Source: Candidatus Woesebacteria bacterium RIFCSPLOWO2_01_FULL_39_23 (GTDB lineage Bacteria; Patescibacteriota; Microgenomatia; UBA8517). From it: a stretch of 58,744 nt of DNA. Below the pieces are notes generated by a model, which was not told where the DNA came from, searched no databases, and saw only the letters and a program-made list of their open reading frames with translations. Below, one piece after another: positions 5,141 to 53,281 of this stretch (position 1 is its first letter; each line of letters starts with the position of its first letter). The translations under genes and the position numbers were made by a program. The DNA is taken from NCBI GenBank assembly GCA_001793095.1, contig MGHG01000011.1:1-58744 (forward strand). Direction: 5' to 3'.

Positions 5141-5210
5141 GGGAATTTAGAGGGGCTTATAGGATTTTAAAGGACTGTACTTTCTTCCTCTAAACTCCTC
5201 TAATTTCCTT
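5141..5210. repeat. Two oppositely oriented arrays of degenerate 10-nt tandem repeats
   Basis: gggaatttag aggggcttat aggattttaa agga (5141-5174) versus ttcctctaaa ctcctctaat ttccttt (5185-5211). Confidence 0.65.
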
Positions 5211-35899: not shown

Positions 35900-35907
35900 T
35901 GTATTTA

Positions 35908-35941
35908 GAGCATAAGAGTAAAAGAGTGGAAAAGTATAAGG
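35908..35941. repeat. 8-nt tandem repeat array at the 3' flank of the four-helix gene
   Basis: gcataaga gtaaaaga gtggaaaa gtataagg; inverted relative to 36345-36382. Confidence 0.6.
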
Positions 35942-35967
35942 AAATCCACTCCTACACAAATTACCTT

Positions 35968-39348: not shown

Positions 39349-41040
39349 TTATTTGCCACCTAACTTTCTCTTCCACCTTTGGAGTCCATATAAGCGTTCT
39401 TCTCTTTCTTCTTGTAATCTACCTAGCATACGATAGTGGGTAGGTGTAATACCAGGAGTTTTCGACATTCTCTCGAGTCTTGTGAGTTGTTCTTGTGTTG
39501 CTCTTTCTCTTCCACCAAAATAAGCCCCAACACCCTTACCATATGCATATTTACCAGTCCCCAGAGCATACCCCAATCCGCCCGCAAACATAGCATTAAC
39601 ATCTTTACCTAAATCTCCCGCGCCTTCAACTCCTTTACCGCTCATAAGCGATTTAACTAAATCTCCCGCTTTGGGTATCATAGCAAAAATTCCGATGGCA
39701 GCAAAGGTCCAAAGTATGGGAAGCGGATCCCAATTTCTGTCTGCTGCCTGCGTCCCGAATGTAATGGGCGGGTACCAGAAATATTGAGTTGTTTCGAAGG
39801 GTGAGCTTACGCTTATAGTTGAAGTTCCTCCTGCTGAAATCATGGTGGACAGCGAGTCTCTTACTCCGGTATATGTCGCAGCTAAAAAGAAAATAGAAAG
39901 TATAAATAGTATTCCGACAACGGGGTAGACCAATAGGTTGGCAATGATACCTCTCAACCACGGCCAGAAACCCCCACCCGGAGTTAGCGCACCGAACCCG
40001 ATAATTAGCGGGGCAAAAGTGACGGAAATAAGTATACTTAGATAAGTTCTGATTAACATGATAAAAATTCTAAAGCAGGCTAAGAAAAGCCAAACTAAAA
40101 TACCTGCAACAATAAACCAGCCCAATATCCAGGCAATTGTTCCTCCCACCCAATTTAGACTCCAGATGCTTCCTGCAGCATTCATGATTGCGTAGTAGAC
40201 AGGGCCGATAAATCCCCAGAACCATCCGAGTAAGCCTATTGGTACATCACCCGGCCCAGTAGTCATTAACCTGAAAACATCCGCCCACTGGGCACCTCCA
40301 AGGAAACCAAACTGCAGAATAATAAAAGAAAATATCCCTATAACGACATAAATTAGGTCTACCATAAATCCCGCAATAGCATAAGAGAAAGTTATTAGTA
40401 TAAGGGTAATTAATATCCTAGGCAGAGCTGACTGAACCGTGACGACTACTTGGGGGGAAATCTTCATTCTAAACATAATCATAAACGCAAACGCTATTAT
40501 GACGACTATAAAGAGACCATACATAACATCTCTGCTACCCTTCCAAACTTTTTGTACCGGAGACAGGGCGCCAAAACCGAAACCTTGAGCCCGAGCTTCG
40601 GGTACGGGTAAAAGTTTTAAGTCAGTTATTTTACCTCGGACATAGGATACTCCCGAGAAGCCCCGTTCGGGATTAAAGATTGTTGCAAATACTCCGCGAT
40701 TTTCTTGTTGTCTAGCCGCACTTGCGGTAAAGAGAGGATTCTCGTTTAAGCAGGTTGTAACATCGCTTCGCATGGAACAAATAATACCGTTTGTATAATC
40801 GTTAGAGGTCAGAAGAAAGGATATTAAACCGAAGATGACCCATTGAACCTGGGCCGCTGTATAACGTTCGCCGAAAATTTCTTCAGGTGGGGATGCGTTA
40901 GTATCGTAAACTTTAGTCACCCATTGCCTGTATGTTTGTATATACCATGGGTTAGTGTCTTGGGCATAAACATAAGACGACCCGATAGACGAGAAAAGAA
41001 ATATTACTAAGGAGGCGGTTGCAATTAATTTTTTAATCAT
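39349..41040 (-). CDS. TrbL/VirB6-like polytopic membrane protein
   Basis: Signal peptide (VYA|QD), W...RD..Y.LF....IAF..MIM, ALPR..I..ILI.FSYAIAGF.VD, several TM helices. ATG 41040 preferred. Confidence 0.75.
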   Translation of the reverse strand: MIKKLIATASLVIFLFSSIGSSYVYAQDTNPWYIQTYRQWVTKVYDTNASPPEEIFGERYTAAQVQWVIFGLISFLLTSNDYTNGIICSMRSDVTTCLNENPLFTASAARQQENRGVFATIFNPERGFSGVSYVRGKITDLKLLPVPEARAQGFGFGALSPVQKVWKGSRDVMYGLFIVVIIAFAFMIMFRMKISPQVVVTVQSALPRILITLILITFSYAIAGFMVDLIYVVIGIFSFIILQFGFLGGAQWADVFRLMTTGPGDVPIGLLGWFWGFIGPVYYAIMNAAGSIWSLNWVGGTIAWILGWFIVAGILVWLFLACFRIFIMLIRTYLSILISVTFAPLIIGFGALTPGGGFWPWLRGIIANLLVYPVVGILFILSIFFLAATYTGVRDSLSTMISAGGTSTISVSSPFETTQYFWYPPITFGTQAADRNWDPLPILWTFAAIGIFAMIPKAGDLVKSLMSGKGVEGAGDLGKDVNAMFAGGLGYALGTGKYAYGKGVGAYFGGRERATQEQLTRLERMSKTPGITPTHYRMLGRLQEEREERLYGLQRWKRKLGGK

Positions 41041-41096
41041 AAATTGACTTATTTTTAATTCTACCACACTACATTATTAGATACGCAAGGATGTAT

Positions 41097-44000
41097 TTAT
41101 AGACATCTAGCTAAGTCGCGTACGCTTGTTTCATAGCATGCATATTGATTCGCCTCGCACCACGGCGTTGCGCCAAACCTGGGATCCTGTTCGCACACTT
41201 GTTGGCTATCGCAATAGCCTAAATATTGCCTAGCGGCTGTAATAATATCGGAGTCCGACCAACTACAACCTGAACCAGTTCTAGTTCCGGTATTTAAACG
41301 TACCCCCTCGCACGTTGGATAACCTGGTGGATTGCAGATTGCAGTATAACCGTCCCAGCCGGGACTTCCGTTAAGTAACTTTCTGGCTGCCGCAAACGTT
41401 GAATCGAGTAAGTTGCACCTATCCGGAATTCTGCCGTCGTTTATGCCTGTTCCGCCATTGTCGAAAACTGCAGCATCCGGTCCCGTTTTCCAACCGGTGG
41501 GTAAAAACTGCCATGGCCCAGCAGCGCCTGACTGGCTTACATTATAAGAATAACAATTGGGAACTTGGCAGTTTGGCCCGCTGGACTCTAAAACCAATTG
41601 GTCAGTCCAATCGAATCTGTCAAACCCGCCTTCGTTATAGAATACTCCCACTAGCAGATTTGCGGGTACATCGTAATATGATGCAGCTGATTCAAATATT
41701 TGCTTCATGAGCGGCGGCATCCAGGAGTCGTATTTTGAGCACATTTGGCAGTCTTGGACGGGAGGTAAATTAGGTAATACAGCAGTGCATGTACCCACAC
41801 CTGCCGATGATGTATCGGATAATATTTGATAACCATAACCCTTTGGCCGTAATATGCCCTGAATTCCAGTTAAGAAATATTCTTTTATGCCGCCAATATG
41901 CGGGAAGTACAGTTGCGCGCCGGATCCCGACCTTAGGTTTCCGGGGTTACCTGCATAAACAGTTCCGTCACTACTTGTGTAGTTAACGCTTGTAGAACCA
42001 GGTATATCCCAAATTTCTGAAACTGCACTTCCGGATGCGACCTTGGGAAAAATTCTTCTGAACACGCTCGAAGAGCCCGCCACAAGCCTTGACCAGATAT
42101 TGTCTGCAAGGGGCGTTTGGGTTTCAAGACCCATGTTAATATAGGAAAAAGTAGAGCACGACTGTGTTGAGGGGGAGGCTTCAACTGGCCTTTGACAAGA
42201 AGTTGAATTTACACACTTAAAATAAGCACTAGGATTACAACTTGTATTTGGAATTGGAGTACAATCTGGCGCCGAGTTAAAATTGGTTGGAACACATATT
42301 CCATATCCATCGCATCTGGCATGACTAATAAGTGTAACTTGTTCTCCGGCTACACATATATAACCCAAATCGCAATCATACCTGCCGTAATTTACTTCTG
42401 TGTAGAGATCAGGAAACGGATCTGGTATACAAGTTCCTCCTGCCAACTTCTGACATAAGTTGCCATAGGGAGCAGGGTTAGGCTGTTGATCCCCGTTTCC
42501 CCACACATAAAAATTACACGCCACCTGAGCCGTGTAACTTACACTTCCCGACAGACCTCCTGCGAAAATATCGTCACCTGGATTGGTTCTTGCTTGAACA
42601 ATATCGCAGTAGGGAGACTCAGGTATAAAGGTTGCGTCAGTCATGTTGTCTTTATCGGCTCCTTCCGGAATATAGGTATTTTGCAGTGCGTCAGCCAAAT
42701 CTCTTCCTTCTTCCATATGGGGGATAAACATATCTGCCGGTGGCACATTGCTTACGTCTACGCTAATCAGGCGAAATTCGGGGGAAGCAAAAGAATAGGA
42801 AGAACTTTTAACATTTATTTCTCCAAGTCGGTCTTCGGTTGAAGAAAAGAGAACATTGGAGAAAAAATTAGACCAAAAATTAGGATTAAGAGGATCATCA
42901 AAGCACCAAAATACTGTACGGTTGCCAAAGATTGCGAACGGTATTGTAAGCTTAAAACAGAAAAGTCCCCGCCAAGCGTAATAATCCGATAGGAAGTTAG
43001 AGTAGTCTTGGCCGATATAGTCTTCTTCCAGGGGTGGCTTATGATCGTTCCAGCCAGAAAGTCGAAGTTGCCTTTCGCCAATTTCAACCGGGCCAATAAA
43101 GGGGAGGTTGATAGTGAAGAGGGGGGTTCTACCGACAATTTCATCATGTCTTTCTTCGGAATTTTGGGTTCTCGACCTATTTGCGCTGTCGACTTCTCGA
43201 ATCCTTTCGCCTGATTGTATTGTAAAAGGCAGTAATTTTCTTATCGGGCCGGAGTAGTTAATAACTTTGTCTCTATCAAGAATATCAACAGGGTCTCCTG
43301 ATACGCAGCATGCAGCAGGCGTCAAACACATGGGACTTTGATCAACAGTAAGATCGTCGTTGGGGTGTGTGGGGGGAATGAAAAAAGGATTTCTTTCCAT
43401 ACAAACTCCATTCTCATTGAGCTCAAGGCATTTACCGGCCGACCCTGTATTTTGACCAATACAGTCGTTATCTGCGTCCATTGGGGGATATTCGGCCTTG
43501 TTAATTACACCATTTAAATACCAGCTTACATATTCGTTAATCTTGTCATTGTCGGTTAAGGTTTCATCACCGTTGTACTGGTTGATTACACTAGGATTAC
43601 CTGAACCAGTATTTCCGATTGAGGGTTCTGTATAACCCATGACGGGGAATTTTGCTCCAGAAATATCTATAGAGAAACTTTTATCACCACTTATAGTAAA
43701 TGAACAACTTTCTATACCCTCACCAATATTTAAGCAACCTCCGCACTCTGCATTTGTAGCGCATTGGTCAGCATCTGGTATACATGGTTCTGTATTTGTG
43801 ACACATTGGCCGCTTGTGTCGCAGTAGTGACAAGCGTTTGAAATGGGATCGAATGGTGGGTTGGGTTCTATATCAGACCCTCCAAAAGTATAAGAAGGTG
43901 TGGGGTTCGGGGCTACTCCGAAATTTTTGACAATCGAAACACTATCGCTTAAAACCAAATCATTTCCACAAAATAGCGCTAAATCTTCTTTGTTTGGATT

Positions 44001-44990
44001 ACACGGACTGGCTTGGTATGGCCGAAGAGAGTGAAATTCTTCATCTGTAAAAGAAGAATCTTCGGGAGCAACTGCGTTACAGGGAAAGGGATATTCTGCA
44101 GATCCGGTTCGGAATCTAGGTCTGGCTTCTCCCGATACCTGTGCGGGAGTGGGTTGGGGAGGTTGAATGCCTGCGCCAACACAATCACCCGCACACACCC
44201 CTAAATGATTGGCGACTTTCCGTTCTGCTCCATCCGAGGGATTATTTTTTATGGTATGTCCATTCTCAGAAGTAACCAAAGTGCTGGAGCCGCCTCCGTC
44301 CATATTGATTGCAGACTCCGCTTGGCAATTTAGCATCATATCAGCCAATTCCTTGAGAGTCACTCCCGGACTATCAACGACCATCAATAAAAGAGTATTA
44401 TTAGAAGCTTTTGCTATCGCGGTTCTGGGATGCAGGTTTGTGCAATAGACTAATGGGTCTTCGCAGTTATTTATTTTTGCGCTCATCACTCCGTCTTTTA
44501 CGAGCGTGTGTCCTCCCGATATGGCGCTCCATTGATTGCCGGGGTTAGTAAAACCTACCGGTTCGTTAAAAAAAGTAACGCCGTTATCTTGCGAGATATA
44601 AATTGAGGGCTCTCCTGATGCATCCGAATAGACATCTCCGTTATAAGTAGCTAGGCCAAGTGGGTCATATATTCCCGGAATAGAGTAATCGCCATTAACG
44701 GCTACACTAGCTCCGTTGTCTAATAAAAAGGTACTTGTATATACTCCAAGACCATCTCTCGGAGTTACGGTTAAATCAATATTCGGGTCATTAAGATCAG
44801 CTTTTACTATAAACCACTTTAGTGTTCTGGGAGAGATTGTGGATTCTTCTTTGTAAGTGATACCAGGGAAAAGTTGACTGAAACCATTAAAGCAGTTAAA
44901 AGTAGGTCCTTGGGCAAAGATAACGTTTATCGAAGCTAAAAATAGCAGTACGAAGATAATTAAACTGGAAAATAACCGCATCTTGGGCAT
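41097..44990 (-). CDS. Secreted multidomain protein: phosphodiester glycosidase (NAGPA/DUF2233-like) + Cys-rich regions + C-terminal lytic transglycosylase-like domain
   Basis: Signal peptide (IFA|QG); AVNGDY, HPRTAI, L.ELA..M, AINMDGGGSS; C-terminal VPANLLVGVFYNEGG and SQSGAAGPWQF. Confidence 0.8.
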   Translation of the reverse strand: MPKMRLFSSLIIFVLLFLASINVIFAQGPTFNCFNGFSQLFPGITYKEESTISPRTLKWFIVKADLNDPNIDLTVTPRDGLGVYTSTFLLDNGASVAVNGDYSIPGIYDPLGLATYNGDVYSDASGEPSIYISQDNGVTFFNEPVGFTNPGNQWSAISGGHTLVKDGVMSAKINNCEDPLVYCTNLHPRTAIAKASNNTLLLMVVDSPGVTLKELADMMLNCQAESAINMDGGGSSTLVTSENGHTIKNNPSDGAERKVANHLGVCAGDCVGAGIQPPQPTPAQVSGEARPRFRTGSAEYPFPCNAVAPEDSSFTDEEFHSLRPYQASPCNPNKEDLALFCGNDLVLSDSVSIVKNFGVAPNPTPSYTFGGSDIEPNPPFDPISNACHYCDTSGQCVTNTEPCIPDADQCATNAECGGCLNIGEGIESCSFTISGDKSFSIDISGAKFPVMGYTEPSIGNTGSGNPSVINQYNGDETLTDNDKINEYVSWYLNGVINKAEYPPMDADNDCIGQNTGSAGKCLELNENGVCMERNPFFIPPTHPNDDLTVDQSPMCLTPAACCVSGDPVDILDRDKVINYSGPIRKLLPFTIQSGERIREVDSANRSRTQNSEERHDEIVGRTPLFTINLPFIGPVEIGERQLRLSGWNDHKPPLEEDYIGQDYSNFLSDYYAWRGLFCFKLTIPFAIFGNRTVFWCFDDPLNPNFWSNFFSNVLFSSTEDRLGEINVKSSSYSFASPEFRLISVDVSNVPPADMFIPHMEEGRDLADALQNTYIPEGADKDNMTDATFIPESPYCDIVQARTNPGDDIFAGGLSGSVSYTAQVACNFYVWGNGDQQPNPAPYGNLCQKLAGGTCIPDPFPDLYTEVNYGRYDCDLGYICVAGEQVTLISHARCDGYGICVPTNFNSAPDCTPIPNTSCNPSAYFKCVNSTSCQRPVEASPSTQSCSTFSYINMGLETQTPLADNIWSRLVAGSSSVFRRIFPKVASGSAVSEIWDIPGSTSVNYTSSDGTVYAGNPGNLRSGSGAQLYFPHIGGIKEYFLTGIQGILRPKGYGYQILSDTSSAGVGTCTAVLPNLPPVQDCQMCSKYDSWMPPLMKQIFESAASYYDVPANLLVGVFYNEGGFDRFDWTDQLVLESSGPNCQVPNCYSYNVSQSGAAGPWQFLPTGWKTGPDAAVFDNGGTGINDGRIPDRCNLLDSTFAAARKLLNGSPGWDGYTAICNPPGYPTCEGVRLNTGTRTGSGCSWSDSDIITAARQYLGYCDSQQVCEQDPRFGATPWCEANQYACYETSVRDLARCL

Positions 44991-45047
44991 CCTGCATAGT
45001 ATAACATGTGCCAGACACACCTTGAATTTATTTGTATAAAGAAGTCA

Positions 45048-45368
45048 TTACTGGTTTACTGTGAAGGTTGTTACGTTGGCGCCCGTGAATGTTTGAATTA
45101 GAACTAGTATTAGGAAGGCTAGAGCTATTACTAATAATCCACCTACTGCGTAGGTAACTATCTTTCTTGCTGCTTGAGCTGCCTCTGGATTGCCTCCAGA
45201 TGTCATTAACTTAAATCCTCCAACAATAAGCATTGCAAAAAGGGCAATTCCGGCAAAACCCAGAATTGTGGTAACAATGTTATTAAATATCCACTCAAAA
45301 CCCTTAATGGTGGCTACACCGTTAATTACTTCAGAGCCTTCTATCGGATCTCTTTGTGCAAGATACAT
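45048..45368 (-). CDS. VirB2/TrbC-like pilin 1
   Basis: Two TM helices around GGFKLMTSGGNPEA...ARK..TYAVGG. Confidence 0.82.
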   Translation of the reverse strand: MYLAQRDPIEGSEVINGVATIKGFEWIFNNIVTTILGFAGIALFAMLIVGGFKLMTSGGNPEAAQAARKIVTYAVGGLLVIALAFLILVLIQTFTGANVTTFTVNQ

Positions 45369-45395
45369 ATCTATAGTTTAGTATATCTGCTAAAC

Positions 45396-45426
45396 AAAAA
45401 AAAGCGGCTCGGAAGAGCCGCTTTTT
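45396..45426 (-). terminator. Bidirectional intrinsic terminator after pilin 2
   Basis: AAAAAAAAGCGGCTC-GGAA-GAGCCGCTTTTT. Confidence 0.8.
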
Positions 45427-45446
45427 CCTTAAAAGGACAGATCCCC

Positions 45447-45764
45447 TTATGATCCAGGAATATTAAATCCTCTTAAGTTGACTCCAAAGAAGCTCTCGAT
45501 GAGAGTTAGTATTGCCCAAGCGGCAAATACTATCACGAGACCTACCAAACCGGCTGTAATTTGATTTCTTGCAGCTTCTGTTTTCCCTTTATCCCCACCC
45601 GAGGTGATCCATTTGATACCTCCCAAGACGAGTATAAAGAAGAAGGCGATTGCCGCGACGATTAAAACAAATGAAATTGCCAATGTAACCAAATCGCCAA
45701 AGTTAATATTCGTTAAATTTGTAAACTCGGCTGGTGGTTGTAGGTTAATATTTTGTGCCAGCAT
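45447..45764 (-). CDS. VirB2/TrbC-like pilin 2
   Basis: GGIKWITSGGDKGKTE.AR.QITAGL.GL.IVFAAWAI. SD-like GGGGGTG places the start at ATG 45764 (MLAQ). Confidence 0.85.
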   Translation of the reverse strand: MLAQNINLQPPAEFTNLTNINFGDLVTLAISFVLIVAAIAFFFILVLGGIKWITSGGDKGKTEAARNQITAGLVGLVIVFAAWAILTLIESFFGVNLRGFNIPGS

Positions 45765-45828
45765 CTTTTTTTCCACCCCCTTCCGTCTAATATAAATAAA
45801 TATATTATCCGTTTTTCAATAAAATAAT

Positions 45829-46185
45829 TTATAGTGCAGGACCAGGGCCTCCACCCCCGGGTAATCCAACGTTAAAGCTTCTAAGATTTACACCGAAGAA
45901 GTTTTCGAGTATGGATATGATCGCCCAAGCGGCAAAAACGATGACCAAACCGATTAGACCGGCTGTAATCTGGCTTCTTGCAGACTCCGTTTTCCCTTTA
46001 TCCCCACCCGAGGTGATCCATTTGATACCTCCCAAGACGAGCATGAAAAAGAATGCAATCGCTGCAATAATGAGAACAAAGTTTATCGCAAGGGTAACAA
46101 GAGTAGTAAAATCTATATTCGCAAGGTTGCCAAATTCGTCCGGAGGAATTAAATTAATTTGATTTTGTGCTAAAAGTTGATTCAT
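45829..46185 (-). CDS. VirB2/TrbC-like pilin 3 (close paralog of pilin 2)
   Basis: Same motif as pilin 2; GAGGTG SD upstream. Confidence 0.85.
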   Translation of the reverse strand: MNQLLAQNQINLIPPDEFGNLANIDFTTLVTLAINFVLIIAAIAFFFMLVLGGIKWITSGGDKGKTESARSQITAGLIGLVIVFAAWAIISILENFFGVNLRSFNVGLPGGGGPGPAL

Positions 46186-46270
46186 GTTTATTAAATATTC
46201 ACCTCACTTACATCGTATTATTCTACAAAATCTGCTTTTATGTCAAGTGGCTTGGTTTTTTACAAGTCAC

Positions 46271-46651
46271 CTAAGGCGGCGGGGCAATTGTATTTATATA
46301 GTTAGATGGATTTAGAATGTCTTCAAATCCGACCAGTATGCCGAGTATCTCGGCGAGGAAAAGGGCTGCGACAACTATCGTAAGTCCGACAACTCCGGAG
46401 ACCATTCTCGATCTTGCTTCGGCGAGTTTGCCTTTATCTCCACCCGAACCCATCCAGGCAATACCTCCGGAAATCAGTAAGAACATAAACCAGATGCCGG
46501 CGACTAATGTCAGAATACCTACAATTGCAGTAAGAATAGAGCTAAAAAGTGCGGGTGAGTTACTTGAGGCTTGTCCCTCTAGCCCATACGTGCCAACTCC
46601 ATTTAACCGCGGACCAATAGTTACTTGTACTTGTGCGATTATTTTTTCCAT
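46271..46651 (-). CDS. VirB2/TrbC-like pilin 4
   Basis: GGIAWMGSGGDKGKL.EAR.RM..GVVGL.IV. Confidence 0.82.
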   Translation of the reverse strand: MEKIIAQVQVTIGPRLNGVGTYGLEGQASSNSPALFSSILTAIVGILTLVAGIWFMFLLISGGIAWMGSGGDKGKLAEARSRMVSGVVGLTIVVAALFLAEILGILVGFEDILNPSNYINTIAPPP

Positions 46652-46652
46652 A

Positions 46653-46997
46653 TTAAGGACCGAAAACCTTTAATTGTAGGAGAGCATTGAAATCATTGAA
46701 AAGAAGTTTACCGAATATTCCGGCTAGGACGAAAGAGCCGACAGCAACAAGAAGTCCGATCATAGTCTGCCAGATTTTTGCCCAAGCAGCGGCTATTTTT
46801 TCCGGATTGCCGCCGGCAGACATGAAAGCGTAACCTGCGAAAATAATATTAAAAAGAGCATAAACACCGGCAATCACAATAATTGTTTTTATAATATTGC
46901 TCATAAAATTTGACAGGGCACTTACGTCTCCCCCATAAGTTGAAACTCCCGGTGGAGGATTGACATTACCGAATACTTGCGCTATATAATTTTGCAT
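46653..46997 (-). CDS. VirB2/TrbC-like pilin 5
   Basis: AGYAFMSAGGNPEKI..AW.KI...MIGL. Confidence 0.82.
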   Translation of the reverse strand: MQNYIAQVFGNVNPPPGVSTYGGDVSALSNFMSNIIKTIIVIAGVYALFNIIFAGYAFMSAGGNPEKIAAAWAKIWQTMIGLLVAVGSFVLAGIFGKLLFNDFNALLQLKVFGP

Positions 46998-47003
46998 ATT
47001 AAG

Positions 47004-47324
47004 TTAAAAACCCGGATTTATTATATTAGTATAACCCGTAATTAATCCTACTATTTTTATCAGCCAATAGGAAGTGAAGATTATAAAAAAACCCAATATG
47101 GCTGCAGTTGCAGCTTTTCTACCCTTGGCAATGTCGTCTTTGTTGCCGCTCCCGGCGCCTACCATCATTGATATGCCCCCGAAGATAAGAAGAATTAGAA
47201 GCATCACACCCGCAATGGCCACTGCGTTTGATAGGATTACCGATACAAGATCTGCAAAGCCTTTGCCTTGTCCCCAGACAGAATTAAAAGTTGGTCCTAT
47301 ATCTACTTGTGCAATTATTTTCAT
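47004..47324 (-). CDS. VirB2/TrbC-like pilin 6
   Basis: GGISMM.GAGSGN......GRK..T.AILGF.IIF.SYW. Confidence 0.82.
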   Translation of the reverse strand: MKIIAQVDIGPTFNSVWGQGKGFADLVSVILSNAVAIAGVMLLILLIFGGISMMVGAGSGNKDDIAKGRKAATAAILGFFIIFTSYWLIKIVGLITGYTNIINPGF

Positions 47325-47330
47325 ATTTAG

Positions 47331-47906
47331 TTAAAAAATTGAACTTATCTGTCCGATTCCTAAAATAATTGCAGCTATTTTAACCACCCAGTATGATACA
47401 AATATTATAATAAATCCTACTAAAGCCATGGTAATTACCTGTTGTGCGCTTTTGGCGTTGTCTGGGTTGCCGGCTGATAATAAAAATTTAAATCCTCCGT
47501 AAATTAAGTAAACAAGAAGGACTAAACCAATTATAGGGAAAATGTATGTTAAAAGGAGACTAATGATATCACCAATTGTTGTTGATTGGGTGAAGAATAA
47601 TTGTCTTGGTTGAGGAATGGGTTGGATTATGCGATATAAACTACTCCAGTTAATGCCGCTACAAACGCAGGGTATGTTTTGATTTTCAGGAGCTGTACAA
47701 GCTGTAGGATTATTATCAAACATATCACAGCTTCCAACTTCACAAGGATCTACACAGTTGCCCGTAGCAATACAGTCTTCATCACCCGCAAGAAGGCATC
47801 TATAGTATCCTTCGGCTTGGGCTAGGGTGGGCTTTGAAGAAGATAAGAATAATGCTAATAAAAGTAGTCCCAGAAGCATAACCTTTATTTTAACAAGTTT
47901 AAGCAT
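47331..47906 (-). CDS. Pilin-domain protein 7 with signal peptide and 8-Cys N-terminal module
   Basis: PTLA|QA; 8 Cys; C-terminal GGFKFLLSAGNPD.AK.A...IT.A.VGF. Confidence 0.82.
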   Translation of the reverse strand: MLKLVKIKVMLLGLLLLALFLSSSKPTLAQAEGYYRCLLAGDEDCIATGNCVDPCEVGSCDMFDNNPTACTAPENQNIPCVCSGINWSSLYRIIQPIPQPRQLFFTQSTTIGDIISLLLTYIFPIIGLVLLVYLIYGGFKFLLSAGNPDNAKSAQQVITMALVGFIIIFVSYWVVKIAAIILGIGQISSIF

Positions 47907-47933
47907 AGATATAATTAATATTAATGATTCTTA

Positions 47934-49094
47934 TTATAAACCTGGAATCCTTAAAATTCTTATTCCAAATAAATCTAAAATAAATACTGAAAAAATAATC
48001 AGTAAAAGTCCGGAAACGGCAGCCGTTAACAGTTCTTTACCGGCCTGAAGTTTTTGTTTATCTCCTCCGGACGTCATAATCAGAAAACCGGCAAAGATTA
48101 TTAATATCATGGCAATACCACCACCAATCCCCAGAGCCCACTTCAGGACGAATGCAAGGAAATCGTTCTGGCTGCTTACGGGAATGCATCCTATTGCTGT
48201 ATATATTCTTCCCAGCTGTCCTGGGGCAGGAGTAGCTGTAGTGGGGTTACCATATGAATCACAATAATAAGCAAGCATGGGTCGGGGAGTAATTGGTAAT
48301 GTTGGGGTGGTAGCGCTACAATCACAATCATATGTTCCGATTATGCAAGTAGGTTCTCCTATACCGCCAGAGCAATTAATTGGATTGCAACCCGGCACAC
48401 AATTATTATCGCTTACATAACAACTACTCCCGCCGCCAATTGAGCAGGTAAATGTGTTTGAAGGCATGGGGGTGGGGGTGACACAATAACCTCGTGGATT
48501 AAAAGCATCGGCGTCACAAACTAAACCAGCAGTACAGTTAAGCGGTGCGTCTGCCCTACTCGGGGGACAAGTGTCTGGTGGAATACCGTGTTGTATACAC
48601 GAATTACTAACATCACAATAAATGTAATTGTTATTACAACAATAAAAGGGTGTCGGTGTAGGTATGGGTGGAATTGGTGTAAGGGTTGGTGTTATTAATG
48701 CGGTTTGGGTCAAACAACAGGGAGTTGCTTCATCGAACGTGTTTCTACATCCCGCATCGGGTGCCCCTTCGTAGCTATAGGGAGGTATAGGACACGCTCG
48801 AGTATTCAAGGGGTCGTCATGATTGTAGTATATACAATAGCCGCTTTCATTTACTGTACCTTCGTAGCAAAGTTCGCTATTGGGATCAAAAGTGCCAGAG
48901 GGTACACAGCAGTATTGTAATGGACATTCTGTGTCTGGGTCGTTTATGTCCTCGTAGCAGTTACTTGCACAATATCCCGGCCGACCGTCTACGTCGTAGG
49001 AACATGCATTTTGAGCTTTAGCGTACTTTGAAGTCATAAGTGTTAGGAATACAGCTAGAGGTAATATAATTAGATAAAACTTTTTCAACATCAA
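47934..49094 (-). CDS. Pilin-domain protein 8 with large Cys-rich passenger
   Basis: AKA|QN; 30 Cys by hand count in modules separated by Pro/Thr linkers; C-terminal TAIGCIP...GF.IMTSGGD...GKELLTAA. Confidence 0.82.
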   Translation of the reverse strand: MMLKKFYLIILPLAVFLTLMTSKYAKAQNACSYDVDGRPGYCASNCYEDINDPDTECPLQYCCVPSGTFDPNSELCYEGTVNESGYCIYYNHDDPLNTRACPIPPYSYEGAPDAGCRNTFDEATPCCLTQTALITPTLTPIPPIPTPTPFYCCNNNYIYCDVSNSCIQHGIPPDTCPPSRADAPLNCTAGLVCDADAFNPRGYCVTPTPMPSNTFTCSIGGGSSCYVSDNNCVPGCNPINCSGGIGEPTCIIGTYDCDCSATTPTLPITPRPMLAYYCDSYGNPTTATPAPGQLGRIYTAIGCIPVSSQNDFLAFVLKWALGIGGGIAMILIIFAGFLIMTSGGDKQKLQAGKELLTAAVSGLLLIIFSVFILDLFGIRILRIPGL

Positions 49095-49130
49095 CTTGAG
49101 TTTAGCACCGTTATATTGTGTGTTACAAGC

Positions 49131-50273
49131 TCAAAGGCCCGGAATTCTTAAGATTCTCAGGCCTATCACATCGAGAAGGTATACTGAAAATATAATCATC
49201 AAAAGTCCCATGATCGCTGCAGTTAATAATTCTTTCCCAGTTTTTGCTCTTGCAGGGTTCCCGGCCGATGTCATTATCATGAACCCCGAGAGAATTATTA
49301 CAATAAATGCGATTCCCCCACCCAATCCTATTGCCCAAGGAAGAATGAAAGAAAGAAACTCTGTTTGATTTGCAACAGGTATACATCCTACCGCTGTGTA
49401 TATTCCTTCCTGGCCATATCTGGTACAGTTAACACTTAACATTGGTCTGGGTGTTAATGGAAATGCTTGTCGGTCTATACAACAAGACATACCCAATGGA
49501 CAGCCGATTGTGTCATGGGGGGGATTTATACCATCCCAATCTCTGTCTGGAGGACAATTGAGGTAATAGCAATTCCCAGGTAAGTCCGTAAAATAACCAA
49601 TACAATTATTGGACGGTTGACATGTCCATACGGTACTATCAAAACAACCTCCACCTCCCGGTCCGCCGAAACCACTGCAGCTATCGGCGCATAAGGGAGA
49701 AAGCTTATCAACTGCCGTGCATTTTTTTTGAGCTAAAGCCGAGCAATAATTACCGGATGGGGATGGATCAGGGTCGACGTAGCAACAGGATGGTGCAACC
49801 GGAGGAATATTAAGGTCGATAACAAATTGGCTATAGCCATATAAAGTCTGTTCGTCATGAGATCTAAGCTCTATTGTGTAAAAACCTGCACCAGGAAACC
49901 AGGGGGTATCTGCAGTCCATCCATTATCAATATAGTTTGGAGGAACTATAACTTGAAGGTTATTAACGGGTATATCGACTGTTTCCGGCCAAAGAGTAAT
50001 ATATTTATGTATTATATAGGGTGTACCACTCGGATTGTATGTAATTTTCAGGATTGGGTCTGGAGGACAGCTCTGATTTGTACAAAGTAAGCTATCGTCG
50101 CAATTTTCGATATATATTGTACGCGCTTCGGATAAATTAGCAGTACTCGGTGAGGTTGTAAGAACACAGGCAAACTGAGCATAAATACTTGAAGGAAAGA
50201 GTGTTTTTATTATTATTAAACTAAAGGTGAAGGTAAAAAATGTGCAGAATATATTTCTAAGTAAGCTCTTCAT
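49131..50273 (-). CDS. Pilin-domain protein 9 with beta-rich and Cys-rich passenger
   Basis: IYA|QF; 20 Cys in the mature part by hand count; C-terminal pilin domain paralogous to pilin 8 (both end RILRIPGL). Confidence 0.82.
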   Translation of the reverse strand: MKSLLRNIFCTFFTFTFSLIIIKTLFPSSIYAQFACVLTTSPSTANLSEARTIYIENCDDSLLCTNQSCPPDPILKITYNPSGTPYIIHKYITLWPETVDIPVNNLQVIVPPNYIDNGWTADTPWFPGAGFYTIELRSHDEQTLYGYSQFVIDLNIPPVAPSCCYVDPDPSPSGNYCSALAQKKCTAVDKLSPLCADSCSGFGGPGGGGCFDSTVWTCQPSNNCIGYFTDLPGNCYYLNCPPDRDWDGINPPHDTIGCPLGMSCCIDRQAFPLTPRPMLSVNCTRYGQEGIYTAVGCIPVANQTEFLSFILPWAIGLGGGIAFIVIILSGFMIMTSAGNPARAKTGKELLTAAIMGLLMIIFSVYLLDVIGLRILRIPGL

Positions 50274-50324: not shown

Positions 50325-50471
50325 TAACTCATAACTTAAATGTCAAAACTTATAACTACAGAGGGCAAAGAACAAAGAGCAAAGAACAGAGGGAAATCAG
50401 TATTATTCTATATTGTATGTTGTATGTTCTTTGTCCTAACTTCAACTCTTCTACTCTTCCACTCTTTCACT
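50325..50471. repeat. Concatenated 7-nt and 8-nt micro-repeat arrays running across the start codon of the SpoIID-like gene
   Basis: taactca taactta aatgtca aaactta taactac / aaagaac aaagagc aaagaac / tatattg tatgttg tatgttc / actcttct actcttcc actctttc. Confidence 0.7.
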
Positions 50472-52106
50472 CTGGTTTCCTCCGAACCTAACTGTGACTC
50501 TCCGGCAATTGGTGATATTGATTATTGTCTTGAGAAGATTCAAAGAGAAATAGACGCCCTAAAACCGGCACACGAATACAATAAAAAAGAACTTTCGGAC
50601 TTGGAGGCGCAAATTGCCTCTCTCACAAAAAGAATTAATGCCCTCTCCGCCCAACTTAAGGAAACAGAGAAAAATTTAACACAAAGAGAGGAGGATCTGG
50701 CTTATGCAAAGAGGATTTTTGAGGAAAAGACTAAAAACCATTATAAATTCATAAGGTTTTATGATGCTTTCTCTGCTTTTATTGCGTCTTCCGATGCCTC
50801 CGAAGCGTTCAGGGAAATAAATTTCAGGCAAAAAGCAGCCGATGAGGACAGAAAGACGATGGGAAAATATGCAACGGATATTGACAAGCTCGAAGCCGAT
50901 AAAGCAAGTCTTGAAAAAAATCAAAAGAGTTTAACCTCCGTTAAAGCGGGTGTTGCAAAAAGGGCAGACTTCCTGGAAGGCGAAGTCGCAAAAACTGAGA
51001 CTTACTTAACAACCCTCTCGTCAAAACAACAAGCACTTATTGCTCAAAAAGAGGCAGGTTTCCAAACATCAGTTGGCGAGACGCCTCCGACTCTCGAGCC
51101 CTGCTCGGGACCTCCCGGGTCGTCAAATTTTTGTGATCCGGGTTTCAGGCCGGCATACGCTGCTTTTTCTTTCGGAGCCCCACACAGAACGGGTTTAAGC
51201 CAGTACGGGGCTTACGGCCGAGCTAAGCTCGGTCAAAATGCAGAAACAATTCTTGCTGATTATTTTCAGGGGTCGTCCTTAAATAAAGGTTATTCCGTAC
51301 CCGCGACAATAGGGGTGAGTGGATATGGAAGATTGGCATTTGAGGATAATTACCTACTGGGTATTTATGAAGTGCCGGAATCCTGGGGAGATAATGGCGG
51401 CTTTGAAGCCCTAAAAGCCCAAGCAGTCGCTGCGCGCTCCTATGCCTTAGCAGTCACAAACGGAGGGTCGGGGACGATTTGTACGACCGAGGCTTGCCAG
51501 GTTTATAAGCCCCAACTAAAATCCGGCAAATGGGCACAGGCTGTTCGGGATACAAGGGGTTGGGTTTTGATAAAAGACGGAGCACCGGCAAAAGCTTACT
51601 ATGCCTCGACGTCGGGTGGATTTACGATATCTCAATGGGGCTGGACGGGCATAAAAGACGCAAAGGGGGGAGATTGGCCAAATCAAGCGTATGAAAAAAT
51701 TTCTGCATCACCCTGGTTTTACAAAGGTTGGTACAAAAGCCGGGGTGGTGCGACTTGCGGGAAAAGCAATCCTTGGCTAACCGGTCAGCAAACGGCGGAT
51801 ATCATTAATGCCTGGCAAGTCTTATATAAAGGCGGAGGAGATACGGGGAGAATATCTCCCGTCGACACAGCCTGCTGGGGAGGGAATCCTTATTCAATAT
51901 CTGAACTTGCCGGGATAGGGGGATATACTTCGGTCGACAGCGTATCTGTAGTTTATGCTAATTCGGGTTCGACTCAGACAATACTACTTGGGACCAATAA
52001 AGGAAGTATAAATATTTCTGGAGATGAGTTTAAGAAAGCTTTTAATCTTCGTGCACCGGGATACATTGGCCTCAAGAGTTCGCTCTTCAATATAGAGAAA
52101 CTATAA
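50340..52106 (+). CDS. SpoIID/LytB-domain protein with N-terminal TM and coiled coil
   Basis: PcsB-like coiled coil; G.PH..GLSQYGA..RA; YL.GI.EVP.SW, EALKAQAVAARSYA, T..CQVY, YY.STSGG, LRAPG..GLKS..F.I. Confidence 0.88.
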   Translation: MSKLITTEGKEQRAKNRGKSVLFYIVCCMFFVLTSTLLLFHSFTLVSSEPNCDSPAIGDIDYCLEKIQREIDALKPAHEYNKKELSDLEAQIASLTKRINALSAQLKETEKNLTQREEDLAYAKRIFEEKTKNHYKFIRFYDAFSAFIASSDASEAFREINFRQKAADEDRKTMGKYATDIDKLEADKASLEKNQKSLTSVKAGVAKRADFLEGEVAKTETYLTTLSSKQQALIAQKEAGFQTSVGETPPTLEPCSGPPGSSNFCDPGFRPAYAAFSFGAPHRTGLSQYGAYGRAKLGQNAETILADYFQGSSLNKGYSVPATIGVSGYGRLAFEDNYLLGIYEVPESWGDNGGFEALKAQAVAARSYALAVTNGGSGTICTTEACQVYKPQLKSGKWAQAVRDTRGWVLIKDGAPAKAYYASTSGGFTISQWGWTGIKDAKGGDWPNQAYEKISASPWFYKGWYKSRGGATCGKSNPWLTGQQTADIINAWQVLYKGGGDTGRISPVDTACWGGNPYSISELAGIGGYTSVDSVSVVYANSGSTQTILLGTNKGSINISGDEFKKAFNLRAPGYIGLKSSLFNIEKL

Positions 52107-52108
52107 TT

Positions 52109-52250
52109 TAACTCGATACTCATAACTCATAACTTATTACTCATTACAAATAATTGGTGCGTAGGGGTAAATCAGTCTCAAATGGTGATATAATGCAATT
52201 AACCTAAAGATTTAAGTTAATAAGTTTTTAGTTATAAGTTATTAGTTATT
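52109..52250. repeat. Oppositely oriented heptamer arrays bracketing a TATAAT promoter-like site
   Basis: taactcg atactca taactca taactta ttactca (52109-52150) versus taagtt/tagtt units (52212-52250). Confidence 0.6.
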
Positions 52251-52253
52251 ACA

Positions 52254-53006: not shown

Positions 53007-53032
53007 TAACTAATAACTAATAATATAATGCC

Positions 53033-53254
53033 ATGAACTTATTAGCTGATTTTAATTTTTCAGTTTGGTTAGTAATAAAAATTGCCGTTATTTTCGGACT
53101 TATTATTTATAATATTTTTGCCTTCATAGTCATGAAACAGGTCAATCTTATGACTGAAACTTTGGAATTGGATTTTGAAGGACCTATAAAATTTGTTGCA
53201 GTTTTTCATTTTATCTTTGCACTTTTTGTACTGGGTTACAGTTTTTTAATGTGA
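53033..53254 (+). CDS. Small two-TM membrane protein (possibly DUF5657-like)
   Basis: Y..FA....KQV.LM..T pattern between two hydrophobic helices. Confidence 0.65.
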   Translation: MNLLADFNFSVWLVIKIAVIFGLIIYNIFAFIVMKQVNLMTETLELDFEGPIKFVAVFHFIFALFVLGYSFLM

Positions 53255-53281
53255 TCAAGACACCTGCTTTGACTAAATTAG

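What the first reader, a model, noticed from the sequence alone, without database searches (positions are those of the whole stretch)
45048..50273. Nine tandem VirB2/TrbC-like pilin-domain genes in graded sizes
Seen: six minimal pilins (105-126 aa), one with a single Cys module (191 aa) and two with large passengers (386 and 380 aa), all sharing TM-G(G/F)xx(W/F/M)xx(S/A)GG(D/N)-K-A-TM. Known: conjugative systems usually have one major pilin. Inferred: a combinatorial pilus with major, minor and adhesin-bearing subunits, analogous to type IV minor pilins but built on the T4SS pilin fold.
Basis: partly seen in the sequence, partly recalled or inferred. Interest (0 to 1): 0.7.

Follow-up and report, generated by a model that had tools for sequence, protein, structure and literature searches.

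The report
Conserved T4SS pilin-like gene cassette, Woesebacteria
Nine neighbouring genes for small two-helix "pilin-like" membrane proteins belong to the type IV secretion region of an ultrasmall groundwater bacterium (Woesebacteria); such arrays were already published in 2025, but comparison with about 70 related genomes shows a fixed set of eight subunit types in a fixed order, which fits one multi-part surface structure better than a set of interchangeable variants.

Summary
Nine co-directional minus-strand ORFs (45048-50273; 106, 109, 118, 126, 114, 106, 191, 386, 380 aa) all match Pfam PF18895 T4SS_pilin. A small one is confidently predicted as a two-helix hairpin.

It is not new as a kind. 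Arrays of 2-11 VirB2-like pilin genes in Patescibacteria, common in Microgenomatia and near dnaA/virB4, were described in 2025 (PMC12102498). One such array is essential in Southlakia.

What I add:
- The nine genes are one instance of a cassette, A+-B-C-D-E-F1-F2-G, kept in the same order in 59 of 63 species-level genomes. Orthologs are 41-88% identical; paralogs only 24-31%.
- Class F2 (W_8 and its F2-like copy W_7) is the most conserved. It has its own perfect TTGACA promoter in 66 of 73 loci, the strongest ribosome-binding sites, and a canonical terminator in the window. It is the predicted major subunit.
- Class A (W_1, W_2) carries Sec signal peptides and hypervariable Cys-rich passengers, which are candidate host-binding modules.
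- The cassette is co-directional with a giant secreted glycosidase, a VirB6-like polytopic protein, a PrgI/VirB3-like protein and VirB4.

Homology to diderm VirB2/TrbC is not demonstrable by sequence. No expression or filament data exist.

The parts
49131..50273 (-). W_1, class A pilin-domain protein (380 aa). It has a signal peptide (...SSIYA|Q), a ~280-aa passenger with 21 Cys in total, a conserved Cys-bonded neck and a two-helix hairpin ending ILRIPGL.
   Evidence: PF18895, 24.7 bits; class A; shares only its last ~175 aa with W_2
47934..49094 (-). W_2, class A pilin-domain protein (386 aa, 30 Cys). It has a signal peptide (...YAKA|Q), a Cys-rich passenger that is not modelled (pLDDT below 50), and a confidently modelled beta-hairpin neck plus hairpin (residues 260-386).
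   Evidence: (30.6 bits)
47331..47906 (-). W_3, class B pilin-domain protein (191 aa). It has a signal peptide (...PTLA|Q), one 8-Cys module and a hairpin ending GQISSIF.
   Evidence: 34.6 bits; class B is usually ~111 aa with no passenger
47004..47324 (-). W_4, class C small leaderless pilin-like hairpin (106 aa).
   Evidence: (26.2 bits)
46653..46997 (-). W_5, class D small leaderless pilin-like hairpin (114 aa; C-terminus ...LLQLKVFGP).
   Evidence: (23.8 bits)
46271..46651 (-). W_6, class E small leaderless pilin-like hairpin (126 aa).
   Evidence: (31.9 bits)
46217..46246 (-). Sigma-70-type promoter-like site (TTGACA-N18-AATAAT, 11 of 12 matches) in the 85-nt gap upstream of W_7. A GTGAGGTGA ribosome-binding site follows it.
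   Evidence: An equivalent perfect TTGACA promoter lies upstream of class F2 in 66 of 73 related loci, against about 1.3 expected.
45829..46185 (-). W_7 (118 aa), an F2-like copy at the F1 position. It is 72% identical to W_8 and forms part of the promoter-to-terminator unit.
   Evidence: 37.0 bits; 287-nt direct repeat with W_8
45447..45776 (-). W_8, class F2, the predicted major subunit (109 aa as an ORF; the probable true start is the ATG at 45764, giving 105 aa). It is the most conserved class, 80-85% identical in the closest relatives.
   Evidence: 39.1 bits; AF2 hairpin, mean pLDDT 80.7
45396..45421 (-). Intrinsic terminator right after W_8: GCGGCTC-TTCC-GAGCCGC followed by T8, with an A-tract upstream.
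   Evidence: A terminator occurs at the same place in the five loci first examined. With strict criteria it is found in about 23% of the wider set, against 6% for control gaps.
45048..45368 (-). W_9, class G small leaderless pilin-like hairpin (106 aa; INGVATIKGFEW...TGANVTTF).
   Evidence: (33.1 bits)
41097..45020 (-). X, a 1307-aa secreted protein 27 nt downstream of the array. It has a signal peptide, an NAGPA/DUF2233 phosphodiester-glycosidase domain and 54 Cys. An ortholog follows the cassette in 65 related loci.
   Evidence: (PF09992, 1.9e-32). The ortholog in L005 has a weak SLT_3 hit. No SLT hit was found in the window copy.
39349..41067 (-). Y, a 572-aa protein with a signal peptide and about 6 TM segments. 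It is a candidate VirB6-like platform or channel and is conserved next to X in 61 related loci.
   Evidence: no family hit; hydropathy. The VirB6-like assignment is inference only.
34853..35959 (-). PrgI/VirB3-like membrane protein fused to a CarboxypepD_reg-like domain (368 aa).
   Evidence: PF12666 E=0.0025, below its cutoff; conserved co-directionally in 40 related loci
30100..34149 (-). VirB4-type ATPase (TraG P-loop / AAA_10) interrupted by an intein carrying a LAGLIDADG endonuclease (1349 aa).
   Evidence: VirB4 reached at the edge of the flank in 18 related loci
50340..52106 (+). Divergently transcribed protein with a SpoIID domain and a coiled coil (588 aa). It is a conserved upstream neighbour of the cassette. 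Whether it belongs to the system is unknown.
   Evidence: 64 loci

Best explanation
The nine genes are the Woesebacterial version of a conserved cassette of PF18895 'T4SS pilin-like' proteins. The cassette belongs to the chromosomal, oriC-proximal, monoderm-type (MPF-FATA-like) type IV secretion region of Patescibacteria.

Shown:
- Each protein ends in a two-helix membrane hairpin with a short basic loop.
- The paralogs fall into eight ancient orthologous classes (A, B, C, D, E, F1, F2, G), kept one by one and in the same order across Microgenomatia.
- Class F2 (here W_8 plus an F2-like duplicate, W_7) is the most conserved class. It has its own strong promoter, the best ribosome-binding sites and, in this genome, its own terminator.
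- Class A (W_1, W_2), and here also class B (W_3), have Sec signal peptides and N-terminal Cys-rich passengers. These passengers diverge far faster than the hairpin.

Inferred:
- The hairpins insert N-out/C-out with the basic loop in the cytoplasm. The small ones do so without a cleaved leader, as archaeal CedA1 pilins do. The large ones use Sec, with signal peptidase I cutting at A|Q.
- The VirB4 ATPase, with the VirB6-like protein Y, extracts the hairpins from the membrane and polymerises them.
- F2 forms the bulk of a filament or conduit.
- The low-abundance classes B-E, F1 and G act as fixed initiator, tip or adaptor subunits, much as minor pilins do in type II secretion and type IV pili.
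- Class A displays a variable, disulfide-rich host-recognition domain on the outside.
- The co-transcribed giant glycosidase X would act on the host or self cell wall at the contact site.
For: - Family and fold.
- Known kind, with essentiality in Southlakia.
- Orthologous classes in fixed order: six loci by eye and by clustering; 59 of 63 species with exact order A+BCDEF+G, modal 8 genes; F1/F2 best hits stay within subtype in 133 of 134 cases.
- Within-class identity across genomes is 41-88%, against 24-31% between classes within the window.
- F2-specific promoter in 66 of 73 loci against about 1.3 expected. Promoter and terminator in the window. Strongest SD pairing for F2.
- Passenger hypervariability: only the C-terminal 23-35% of W_2 is conserved in 221 homologs of 212-652 aa. 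In the closest relatives, passengers are 21-26% identical, class A hairpins 53-70% and F2 80-85%.
- Class A has an SP-like leader in 65 of 74 cases and a median of 9.5 Cys.
- Conserved co-directional linkage to X, Y, PrgI-like, U219 and VirB4.
- Weak but repeated similarity to the Mycoplasma ICE pilin-like conjugal transfer family NF045849.
- Precedent for leaderless and SPase-processed conjugative pilins without mutual sequence similarity (PMC9905601).
- No population variation or rearrangement in four metagenomes, and no shufflon-like repeats.
Against: - No transcript, protein or filament data exist for this organism.
- Sequence-profile homology to VirB2/TrbC is insignificant. Foldseek finds only generic hairpins, with ATP synthase subunit c the best hit at E=2.3.
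- Monoderm T4SSs are generally pilus-less.
- The terminator after F2 is detectable in only about a quarter of the wider set.
- Promoter and SD strength are only proxies for abundance.
- Single polypeptides with 2-17 fused hairpins exist in the family. These are hard to reconcile with extraction of single subunits into a filament.
- Passenger structure and function are unknown (no PDB or Pfam match).
Confidence: 0.55

Rival explanations
1. Variation repertoire. The paralogs are interchangeable alternative pilins, kept to vary the surface or to match different host strains. This is analogous to the virB2 paralog arrays of Bartonella and Anaplasma, and is the reading offered in PMC12102498.
For: - Low identity between paralogs (24-31%), as that paper reports.
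- Class A copy number varies from 1 to 3 and its passengers are hypervariable. For class A alone, this reading probably holds.
Against: - Each class is retained one-to-one and in the same order in 59 of 63 species. Orthologs are much more similar than paralogs. That is the signature of non-redundant specialised subunits.
- The only recent duplications are in classes A and F.
- There are no recombination repeats.
- There are no variants or rearrangements across four samples.
- Only one class has its own promoter.
Confidence: 0.12
2. Membrane-embedded assembly, not a pilus. The hairpins form a hetero-oligomeric ring, platform or channel in the cytoplasmic membrane around the VirB6-like/VirB4 core. 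Class A passengers project from the cell surface. No extended filament is built.
For: - Monoderm T4SSs lack pili.
- The family contains polypeptides with 2-17 fused hairpins, including a Curtissbacteria A-B-x fusion. This is reminiscent of fused c-subunits of rotary ATPases.
- The best, though insignificant, structural match is ATP synthase subunit c.
- A fixed set of one gene per class suits a defined complex.
- In archaea, the N-terminus of the VirB6-like CedA is homologous to the pilin.
Against: - One class has a dedicated strong promoter and SD, which suggests large excess of one subunit, as in filaments.
- Archaeal CedA1, once thought to be an integral membrane protein, proved to form a pilus.
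- Most fused forms are singletons.
Confidence: 0.25
3. Not a T4SS part. The hairpins are small membrane proteins of a cell-wall remodelling or division module (SpoIID, NAGPA glycosidase, M23 peptidase) that merely lies near virB4 at the origin region.
For: - The immediate neighbours are cell-wall enzymes.
- The whole SmpB-to-VirB4 region is syntenic near oriC, so the linkage could be a conserved neighbourhood and not a functional one.
- VirB2 homology is unproven.
Against: - PF18895 and the NF045849 Mycoplasma ICE pilin-like family both tie the domain to conjugative T4SS.
- In Southlakia the pilin genes lie inside the essential T4SS cluster.
- In 1135 assemblies the pilin gene is near virB4.
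- The cassette is co-directional with PrgI-like and VirB4 genes within about 10 kb.
Confidence: 0.08

Closest known systems
VirB2-like pilin arrays of Patescibacteria (Quinonero-Coronel et al. 2025, PMC12102498; essential 6-pilin array of Ca. Southlakia epibionticum ML1, Wang et al. 2023, PMC10633639; 'Sec secreted array' of TM7x)
   Same: Tandem PF18895 genes (2-11 per array), about 25% identity between paralogs, abundant in Microgenomatia, on the chromosome near dnaA and virB4, and with no relaxase context. The window meets every criterion of that description.
   Different: The main texts searched here had no match for 'signal peptide' and, in the passages returned, no description of orthologous classes, fixed gene order, a separately promoted class or passenger fusions. 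They state that no adhesins were detected and propose antigenic-variation-like versatility. The supplements were not read.
Diderm conjugative pilins VirB2/TrbC/TraA (PF04956 and relatives) with the VirB5 tip adhesin
   Same: Small two-helix hydrophobic hairpin with a short basic loop. Some members are processed by signal peptidase I at A|Q (invariant A-x-A-Q in five real VirB2/TrbC proteins). Genetic linkage to VirB3, VirB4 and VirB6-like genes.
   Different: No detectable sequence homology. Six of the nine proteins have no signal peptide. There are eight subunit classes instead of one pilin plus VirB5. The adhesin-like domain is fused to the pilin hairpin itself. The cell is a monoderm.
Archaeal conjugative/DNA-import pilins CedA1 and TedC (Beltran et al. 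2023, PMC9905601)
   Same: Two-TM pilins encoded beside VirB4-like and VirB6-like genes on a chromosome, in a domesticated T4SS without a relaxase. CedA1 is exported without processing, like classes C-G. TedC is cleaved by SPase I, like classes A and B.
   Different: The archaeal systems have a single pilin (plus CedA2), not an eight-class cassette, and no passenger fusions. No sequence similarity was tested or expected.
Minor pilin / pseudopilin sets of type IV pili and type II secretion (FimU-PilVWXE, GspH-K with major GspG)
   Same: In functional layout only: one abundant major subunit plus a fixed set of conserved low-abundance subunits encoded in a fixed operon order, some with large tip domains.
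   Different: An unrelated fold and biogenesis. There is no class III (G|FxxxE) prepilin leader in any of the nine N-termini, no prepilin peptidase involvement, and a different ATPase family. This is an analogy, not membership.
Mbov_0395 / ICE_MMCAP2_0565 pilin-like conjugal transfer protein of Mycoplasma ICEs (NCBIfam NF045849)
   Same: An ~80-residue two-helix hairpin from a monoderm MPF-FATA-type conjugation system. Seven of the eight window pilins tested match it at E from 8e-8 to 0.02 over nearly the full model.
   Different: All scores (14-32 bits) are below the curated 40-bit cutoff. In mycoplasma ICEs it is a single gene.
virB2 paralog arrays of Bartonella and Anaplasma
   Same: Several tandem pilin paralogs next to a T4SS.
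   Different: Those are recent, lineage-specific amplifications thought to serve variation. Here the paralogs are ancient, and orthologs are conserved one-to-one across a class-level clade.

Membership tests
Pfam PF18895 T4SS_pilin | HMM match at or above the gathering score (26.6 bits) | tested here: met
   Six of nine are above the cutoff (30.6-39.1 bits). W_1 (24.7), W_4 (26.2) and W_5 (23.8) are just below, at E from 8e-6 to 5e-5. All three sit in orthologous classes whose other members pass.
Patescibacterial VirB2-like pilin array (sensu PMC12102498) | Two or more PF18895/PF04956 genes in tandem, or separated by at most one non-pilin gene | tested here: met
   nine contiguous genes with none intervening.
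Patescibacterial VirB2-like pilin array (sensu PMC12102498) | Host genome is Patescibacteria and the array lies in the virB4/dnaA region | tested here: met
   The closest relatives are Ca. Woesebacteria GW2011_GWA1_38_8 and GWA1_39_21. dnaA is at 24380-25744, dnaN at 25978-27093 and VirB4 at 30100-34149.
TrbC/VirB2 family (PF04956) | Sequence-profile match to the family | tested here: not met
   There is no PF04956 hit at E<=1 for any of the nine. hhalign of the class F profile against five genuine VirB2/TrbC proteins gives probability 1.6% and E 0.033, although the register is topologically correct.
TrbC/VirB2 family (PF04956) | Two-helix hydrophobic hairpin with a short loop (the VirB2/TraA fold) | tested here: inconclusive
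   AF2 gives helices 26-58 and 63-97 with core pLDDT above 90, which is compatible. However, Foldseek against the PDB returns no pilin and nothing at E<=0.001. The fold is too simple to discriminate.
TrbC/VirB2 family (PF04956) | N-terminal signal peptide removed by signal peptidase I | tested here: inconclusive
   This is predicted for W_1, W_2 and W_3 only (an h-region followed by A|Q). The six small proteins have only 4-8 residues before 'AQ' and no h-region. Cleavage itself cannot be tested here.
TrbC/VirB2 family (PF04956) | Polymerises into an extracellular pilus dependent on VirB4 and VirB6 | not testable with these tools
   No RNA runs were found. There are no proteomic or imaging data.
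NCBIfam NF045849 Mbov_0395 pilin-like conjugal transfer protein | Score at or above the curated cutoff (40 bits) | tested here: not met
   the best score is 31.8 bits (W_3). Seven of the eight tested hit at E<=0.024, so this is a distant relative and not a member.
Type IV pilin / pseudopilin (T4P, T2SS) | Class III signal peptide (short basic leader, G|F/M, Glu5) followed by a single N-terminal hydrophobic helix | tested here: not met
   no such motif is present. The hydrophobic hairpin is C-terminal and there are two helices.

The most novel reading that the evidence does not exclude
Microgenomatia, and perhaps Patescibacteria generally, build a heteromeric T4SS-type filament or conduit in a monoderm envelope from eight dedicated hairpin subunits. 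There would be one separately promoted major subunit (F2) and six fixed minor subunits. A tip or surface subunit (class A) would carry a hypervariable, disulfide-rich N-terminal passenger fused directly to the pilin hairpin, and that passenger would determine which host cell is recognised. This would be a convergent counterpart of the major/minor pilin logic of type IV pili, built on the conjugative-pilin scaffold, and would replace VirB5 with pilin-fused adhesins.
Probability: 0.35. Interest if true: 0.75.

Novelty: new member of a known kind. Interest (0 to 1): 0.45.

Why it matters
The T4SS and its pilin array are essential for the epibiotic life of the only genetically tractable patescibacterium, and their role is called 'completely unknown' (PMC11665869).

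Showing that the array is a fixed eight-class cassette, with one predicted major subunit and a hypervariable passenger-bearing class, turns a vague 'multiple pilins' observation into specific, testable predictions. It says which protein should dominate a purified filament, which genes should each be indispensable, and which domain should set host range. It also argues against the published antigenic-variation analogy for all classes except A.

Tried and rejected
- Foldseek of the small-pilin model against the PDB gave only generic helical hairpins (best E 2.3). It is uninformative for or against VirB2.
- PDB sequence searches with the class F profile, W_1 and W_2 found nothing meaningful.
- hhalign of class F against five real VirB2/TrbC proteins fetched from plasmids was not significant.
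- The AF2 model of W_2 left the passenger unmodelled, so no fold search was made on it.
- An exact look-up of W_2 in the assembly index found nothing on record.
- The RNA run search found none, so co-expression with virB4 could not be tested.
- The generic promoter/terminator scan was not above shuffles and missed the obvious terminator after W_8. It was replaced by targeted, comparative scans.
- I first thought the invariant N-terminal 'AQ' might be a pilin-specific processing or cyclisation site, as at Ala47|Gln48 of VirB2. But X and Y, which are unrelated secreted proteins, also end their signal peptides in FAQ and YAQ. The motif is present in only 24% of small pilins across species, although about 7 of 418 would be expected by chance. 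It is therefore most likely the generic SPase I c-region, retained in vestigial form. Its role in leaderless pilins stays unexplained.
- A two-cluster cut of class F by BLAST scores failed. It was replaced by positional-subtype statistics.
- A visual impression of an SLT-like motif at the C-terminus of X was not confirmed by Pfam.
- The R388 accession look-up failed.

Full report
**1. Observation**

I number them W_1 to W_9 in the order they are transcribed:
- W_1: 49131-50273, 380 aa
- W_2: 47934-49094, 386 aa
- W_3: 47331-47906, 191 aa
- W_4: 47004-47324, 106 aa
- W_5: 46653-46997, 114 aa
- W_6: 46271-46651, 126 aa
- W_7: 45829-46185, 118 aa
- W_8: 45447-45776, 109 aa
- W_9: 45048-45368, 106 aa

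All nine match Pfam PF18895 (T4SS_pilin). Six are above the gathering score and three just below.

Hydropathy shows two C-terminal hydrophobic segments in each protein, joined by a G-rich, K/R-containing loop. The three long proteins also have an N-terminal signal-peptide-like segment plus 8-30 cysteines.

**2. Genomic setting**

The window is ordinary chromosome, about 40% GC. It carries dnaA, dnaN, yidC, leuS, groEL, smpB and similar housekeeping genes.

On the same strand as the array, going downstream, lie:
- a 1307-aa secreted NAGPA-type glycosidase with 54 Cys (X, 41097-45020);
- a 572-aa protein with a signal peptide and about 6 TM segments (Y, 39349-41067);
- a PrgI/VirB3-like protein (34853-35959);
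- a VirB4-type ATPase split by a LAGLIDADG intein (30100-34149);
- an M23 peptidase.

The closest named genomes are Candidatus Woesebacteria, class Microgenomatia. The DNA occurs unchanged in about 20 groundwater, soil and sediment metagenome runs.

**3. What is already known**

PMC12102498 (2025) reports 441 arrays of 2-11 VirB2-like pilin genes in 383 Patescibacteria assemblies. They were detected with PF18895 and PF04956, were most abundant in Microgenomatia and Saccharimonadia, and averaged 25% identity between paralogs. The same paper places the T4SS near dnaA.

The six-gene array of Southlakia epibionticum lies inside its T4SS cluster and is essential (PMC10633639 and PMC12857230).

Those papers interpret the multiplicity by analogy with Bartonella/Anaplasma antigenic variation and state that no adhesins were detected. 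A search of the main text of PMC12102498 found no match for 'signal peptide', and the passages returned describe no passenger fusions or orthologous classes. I did not read the supplements.

**4. New comparative result: a fixed cassette**

Homologs of W_2 are numerous: 221 proteins of 212-652 aa. Only the C-terminal 23-35% of the query is conserved in them.

Five contigs carrying such homologs show the same neighbourhood. A SpoIID gene lies on the opposite strand, followed by large pilins, one mid-size pilin, several small pilins, and then a giant NAGPA or SLT_3 protein.

Clustering the C-terminal 100 aa of all 54 pilins analysed from the window and these five loci gives seven classes, in the same order in every locus. 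Identity within a class across genomes is 41-88%. Identity between classes within the window is 24-31%.

I then fetched 79 loci from species-representative genomes and scored their ORFs with class HMMs:
- 63 loci contain the full span from A to G.
- 59 of those 63 have exactly the order A+ B C D E F+ G. In the other four, the class C gene merely scores as class B.
- The modal array has eight genes, with one A gene (55 of 63) and two F genes (59 of 63).

The two F genes are themselves positional subtypes. F1 averages 41% identity across species and F2 averages 62%, the highest of any class. Best hits stay within subtype in 133 of 134 cases.

In the window's own sub-lineage, the gene at the F1 position (W_7) is F2-like. 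It is 72% identical to W_8, and 51% identical to the F2 group against 35% to the F1 group.

The 'graded sizes' are therefore class structure:
- class A is duplicated here and carries large passengers;
- class B here carries a small passenger, although it is usually about 111 aa;
- the remaining six genes are small and leaderless.

**5. One class is set apart for expression**

In the window, a TTGACA-N18-AATAAT site (46246-46217) and a strong ribosome-binding site precede W_7. A textbook intrinsic terminator follows W_8: GCGGCTC-TTCC-GAGCCGC then T8, at 45421-45396.

Across species, 66 of 73 loci have a perfect TTGACA box, a 16-18 nt spacer (18 nt in 60 loci) and an NATAAT box within 200 nt upstream of F2, or upstream of the preceding F gene in the window lineage. 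The background rate of 0.07 per kb per strand predicts about 1.3 such loci.

The terminator evidence is weaker:
- A terminator after the last F gene is present in all six loci first examined, with different stem sequences.
- With strict criteria it is found in only about 23% of the wider set, against 6% after A-E genes.

Shine-Dalgarno pairing is strongest for F2, with a median of -5.4 kcal/mol and values down to -16. The other classes range from about +1 to -3.

Genes A to E are packed, with gaps of 1-45 nt.

I infer that F2 is made in excess and is the major structural subunit. This is inference from proxies, because no RNA data exist.

**6. Passengers**

Class A has an SP-like leader in 65 of 74 cases. 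Its length ranges from 103 to 558 aa, and it has a median of 9.5 Cys (maximum 48) before the hairpin.

W_1 and W_2 share only their last ~175 aa, at 48% identity. Their N-terminal ~200 aa are unrelated.

Against the closest relatives, F2 is 80-85% identical and class A hairpins are 53-70% identical, but class A passengers are only 21-26% identical.

AF2 models the W_2 neck and hairpin (residues 260-386) confidently, including a beta-hairpin with conserved Cys. It does not model the passenger. Nothing in the PDB or Pfam matches the passengers.

A fast-evolving, disulfide-rich extracellular domain on a conserved anchor is what one expects of a host-recognition module. That is inference.

**7. 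Relation to VirB2**

A class F member folds as a two-helix hairpin with core pLDDT above 90.

Specific homology to diderm VirB2/TrbC is not shown, however:
- There is no PF04956 hit.
- hhalign gives a probability of 1.6%.
- Foldseek returns only generic hairpins.

Conjugative pilins of archaea and bacteria that are structurally homologous also lack mutual sequence similarity (PMC9905601). The negative result is therefore weak evidence.

There is an independent link to conjugation. Seven of the eight pilins tested weakly match NF045849, the pilin-like conjugal transfer protein of Mycoplasma ICEs. That system is a monoderm MPF-FATA type, the class to which patescibacterial VirB4 is related.

The cassette is co-directional with PrgI-like, U219 and VirB4 genes within about 10 kb in related genomes.

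**8. The 'AQ' motif**

All nine proteins have A-Q near the N-terminus. In the three long ones it lies at the predicted SPase I site.

Real VirB2/TrbC proteins also have an invariant A-x-A-Q at that position, and mature T-pilin begins QSAG.

However, X and Y also end their signal peptides in FAQ and YAQ. So A|Q is this organism's generic cleavage context.

The six small pilins have M-x(2-6)-h-h-A-Q with no h-region. Across species this motif occurs in 100 of 418 small pilins, against about 7 expected. It is enriched but not universal.

CedA1-type pilins are exported unprocessed, which gives a precedent for leaderless insertion. Whether the short leader is cleaved remains unexplained.

**9. Rivals**

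- The variation reading is contradicted by one-to-one orthology, fixed order, absence of recombination repeats and absence of population variants. It may still hold for class A.
- A membrane-embedded ring or platform is a serious alternative. Monoderm T4SSs lack pili, and the family contains polypeptides with 2-17 fused hairpins.
- A T4SS-unrelated role is unlikely, given.

**10. Verdict**

The feature is real, and as a kind it is already described. The window is a typical, slightly expanded (A and F2 duplicated) member of a Microgenomatia-wide cassette.

Noticed in passing
Proteins P0241, P0243, P0245, P0250, P0390 (family-wide search, not in the window): The pilin-hairpin family is very large: 88,523 representatives at 50% identity with E<=0.001. 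Its top-scoring members are single polypeptides with 2-17 hairpin domains in tandem, for example 1775 aa with 17 domains. P0250 (Ca. Curtissbacteria) looks like a fused A-B-x protein, with 'AYAQ' and 'VYAQ' and no Met at the domain junctions. That would fit internal signal-peptidase sites placed after each outward-going helix.
   Followed up: partly
window 30100-34149 (-): The VirB4-type ATPase is interrupted by an intein with a LAGLIDADG homing endonuclease (Intein_splicing at residues 361-954, LAGLIDADG_3 at 608-689). The P-loop domain resumes at about residue 954.
   Followed up: no
window 39349-41067 (-): This 572-aa protein has a signal peptide (...SSYVYA|Q) and about 6 TM segments, and has no Pfam or NCBIfam hit. 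It is conserved next to the cassette in 61 of 79 related loci. It is a candidate for the VirB6-like component that the 2025 survey found 'scarce' in Microgenomatia.
   Followed up: partly
window 41097-45020 (-): This giant 1307-aa secreted protein has an NAGPA/DUF2233 phosphodiester-glycosidase domain (residues 102-275) and 54 Cys. It begins 27 nt after the last pilin gene, and orthologs of 800-1400 aa always follow the cassette. One ortholog (in L005) has a weak SLT_3 hit. The window copy gave no SLT hit.
   Followed up: partly
window 45764 vs 45776 (-): The longest-ORF start of W_8 (GTG at 45776) is probably wrong. The ATG at 45764 gives MLAQN..., which matches the start of the homolog listed second, and sits about 10 nt downstream of a GGAAGGGGG Shine-Dalgarno sequence.
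   Followed up: yes
window 35968-36342 (-) and 5210-5941 (-): There are two genes for 23S rRNA intervening-sequence (four-helix-bundle) proteins. One is inserted between the PrgI-like gene and the 957-aa gene. A similar insertion interrupts the pilin cassette in L004 (11217-11594).
   Followed up: no
window 34853-35959 (-): The PrgI/VirB3-like membrane protein is fused to a C-terminal CarboxypepD_reg-like (Ig-like) domain. It is conserved co-directionally in 40 related loci.
   Followed up: no
window 50340-55177 (+) and related loci: A block of four genes is conserved on the opposite strand upstream of the cassette in 57-64 of 79 loci. The genes are SpoIID with a coiled coil (588 aa), a bPH_2 membrane protein (250 aa), a DUF5657-like two-TM ORF (53033-53254, 73 aa) and a 631-aa single-TM protein. 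Whether they belong to the system is unknown.
   Followed up: partly
Loci L014, L016-L019, L026-L027 and others (genome contigs): Many species-representative MAGs that carry this Microgenomatia cassette are titled 'uncultured Gammaproteobacteria bacterium' in their records. This appears to be a bulk mislabelling.
   Followed up: no
window 45603-46041: Logan contigs from all four runs examined break at the W_7/W_8 repeat (287 nt at 72% identity, with an exact shared stretch of about 50 nt). Short-read assemblies of such arrays will therefore often be fragmented exactly at the duplicated major-subunit genes.
   Followed up: yes
window 21806-22228 (-): A stand-alone RNase H / RVT_3-like gene lies between housekeeping genes near yidC.
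   Followed up: no
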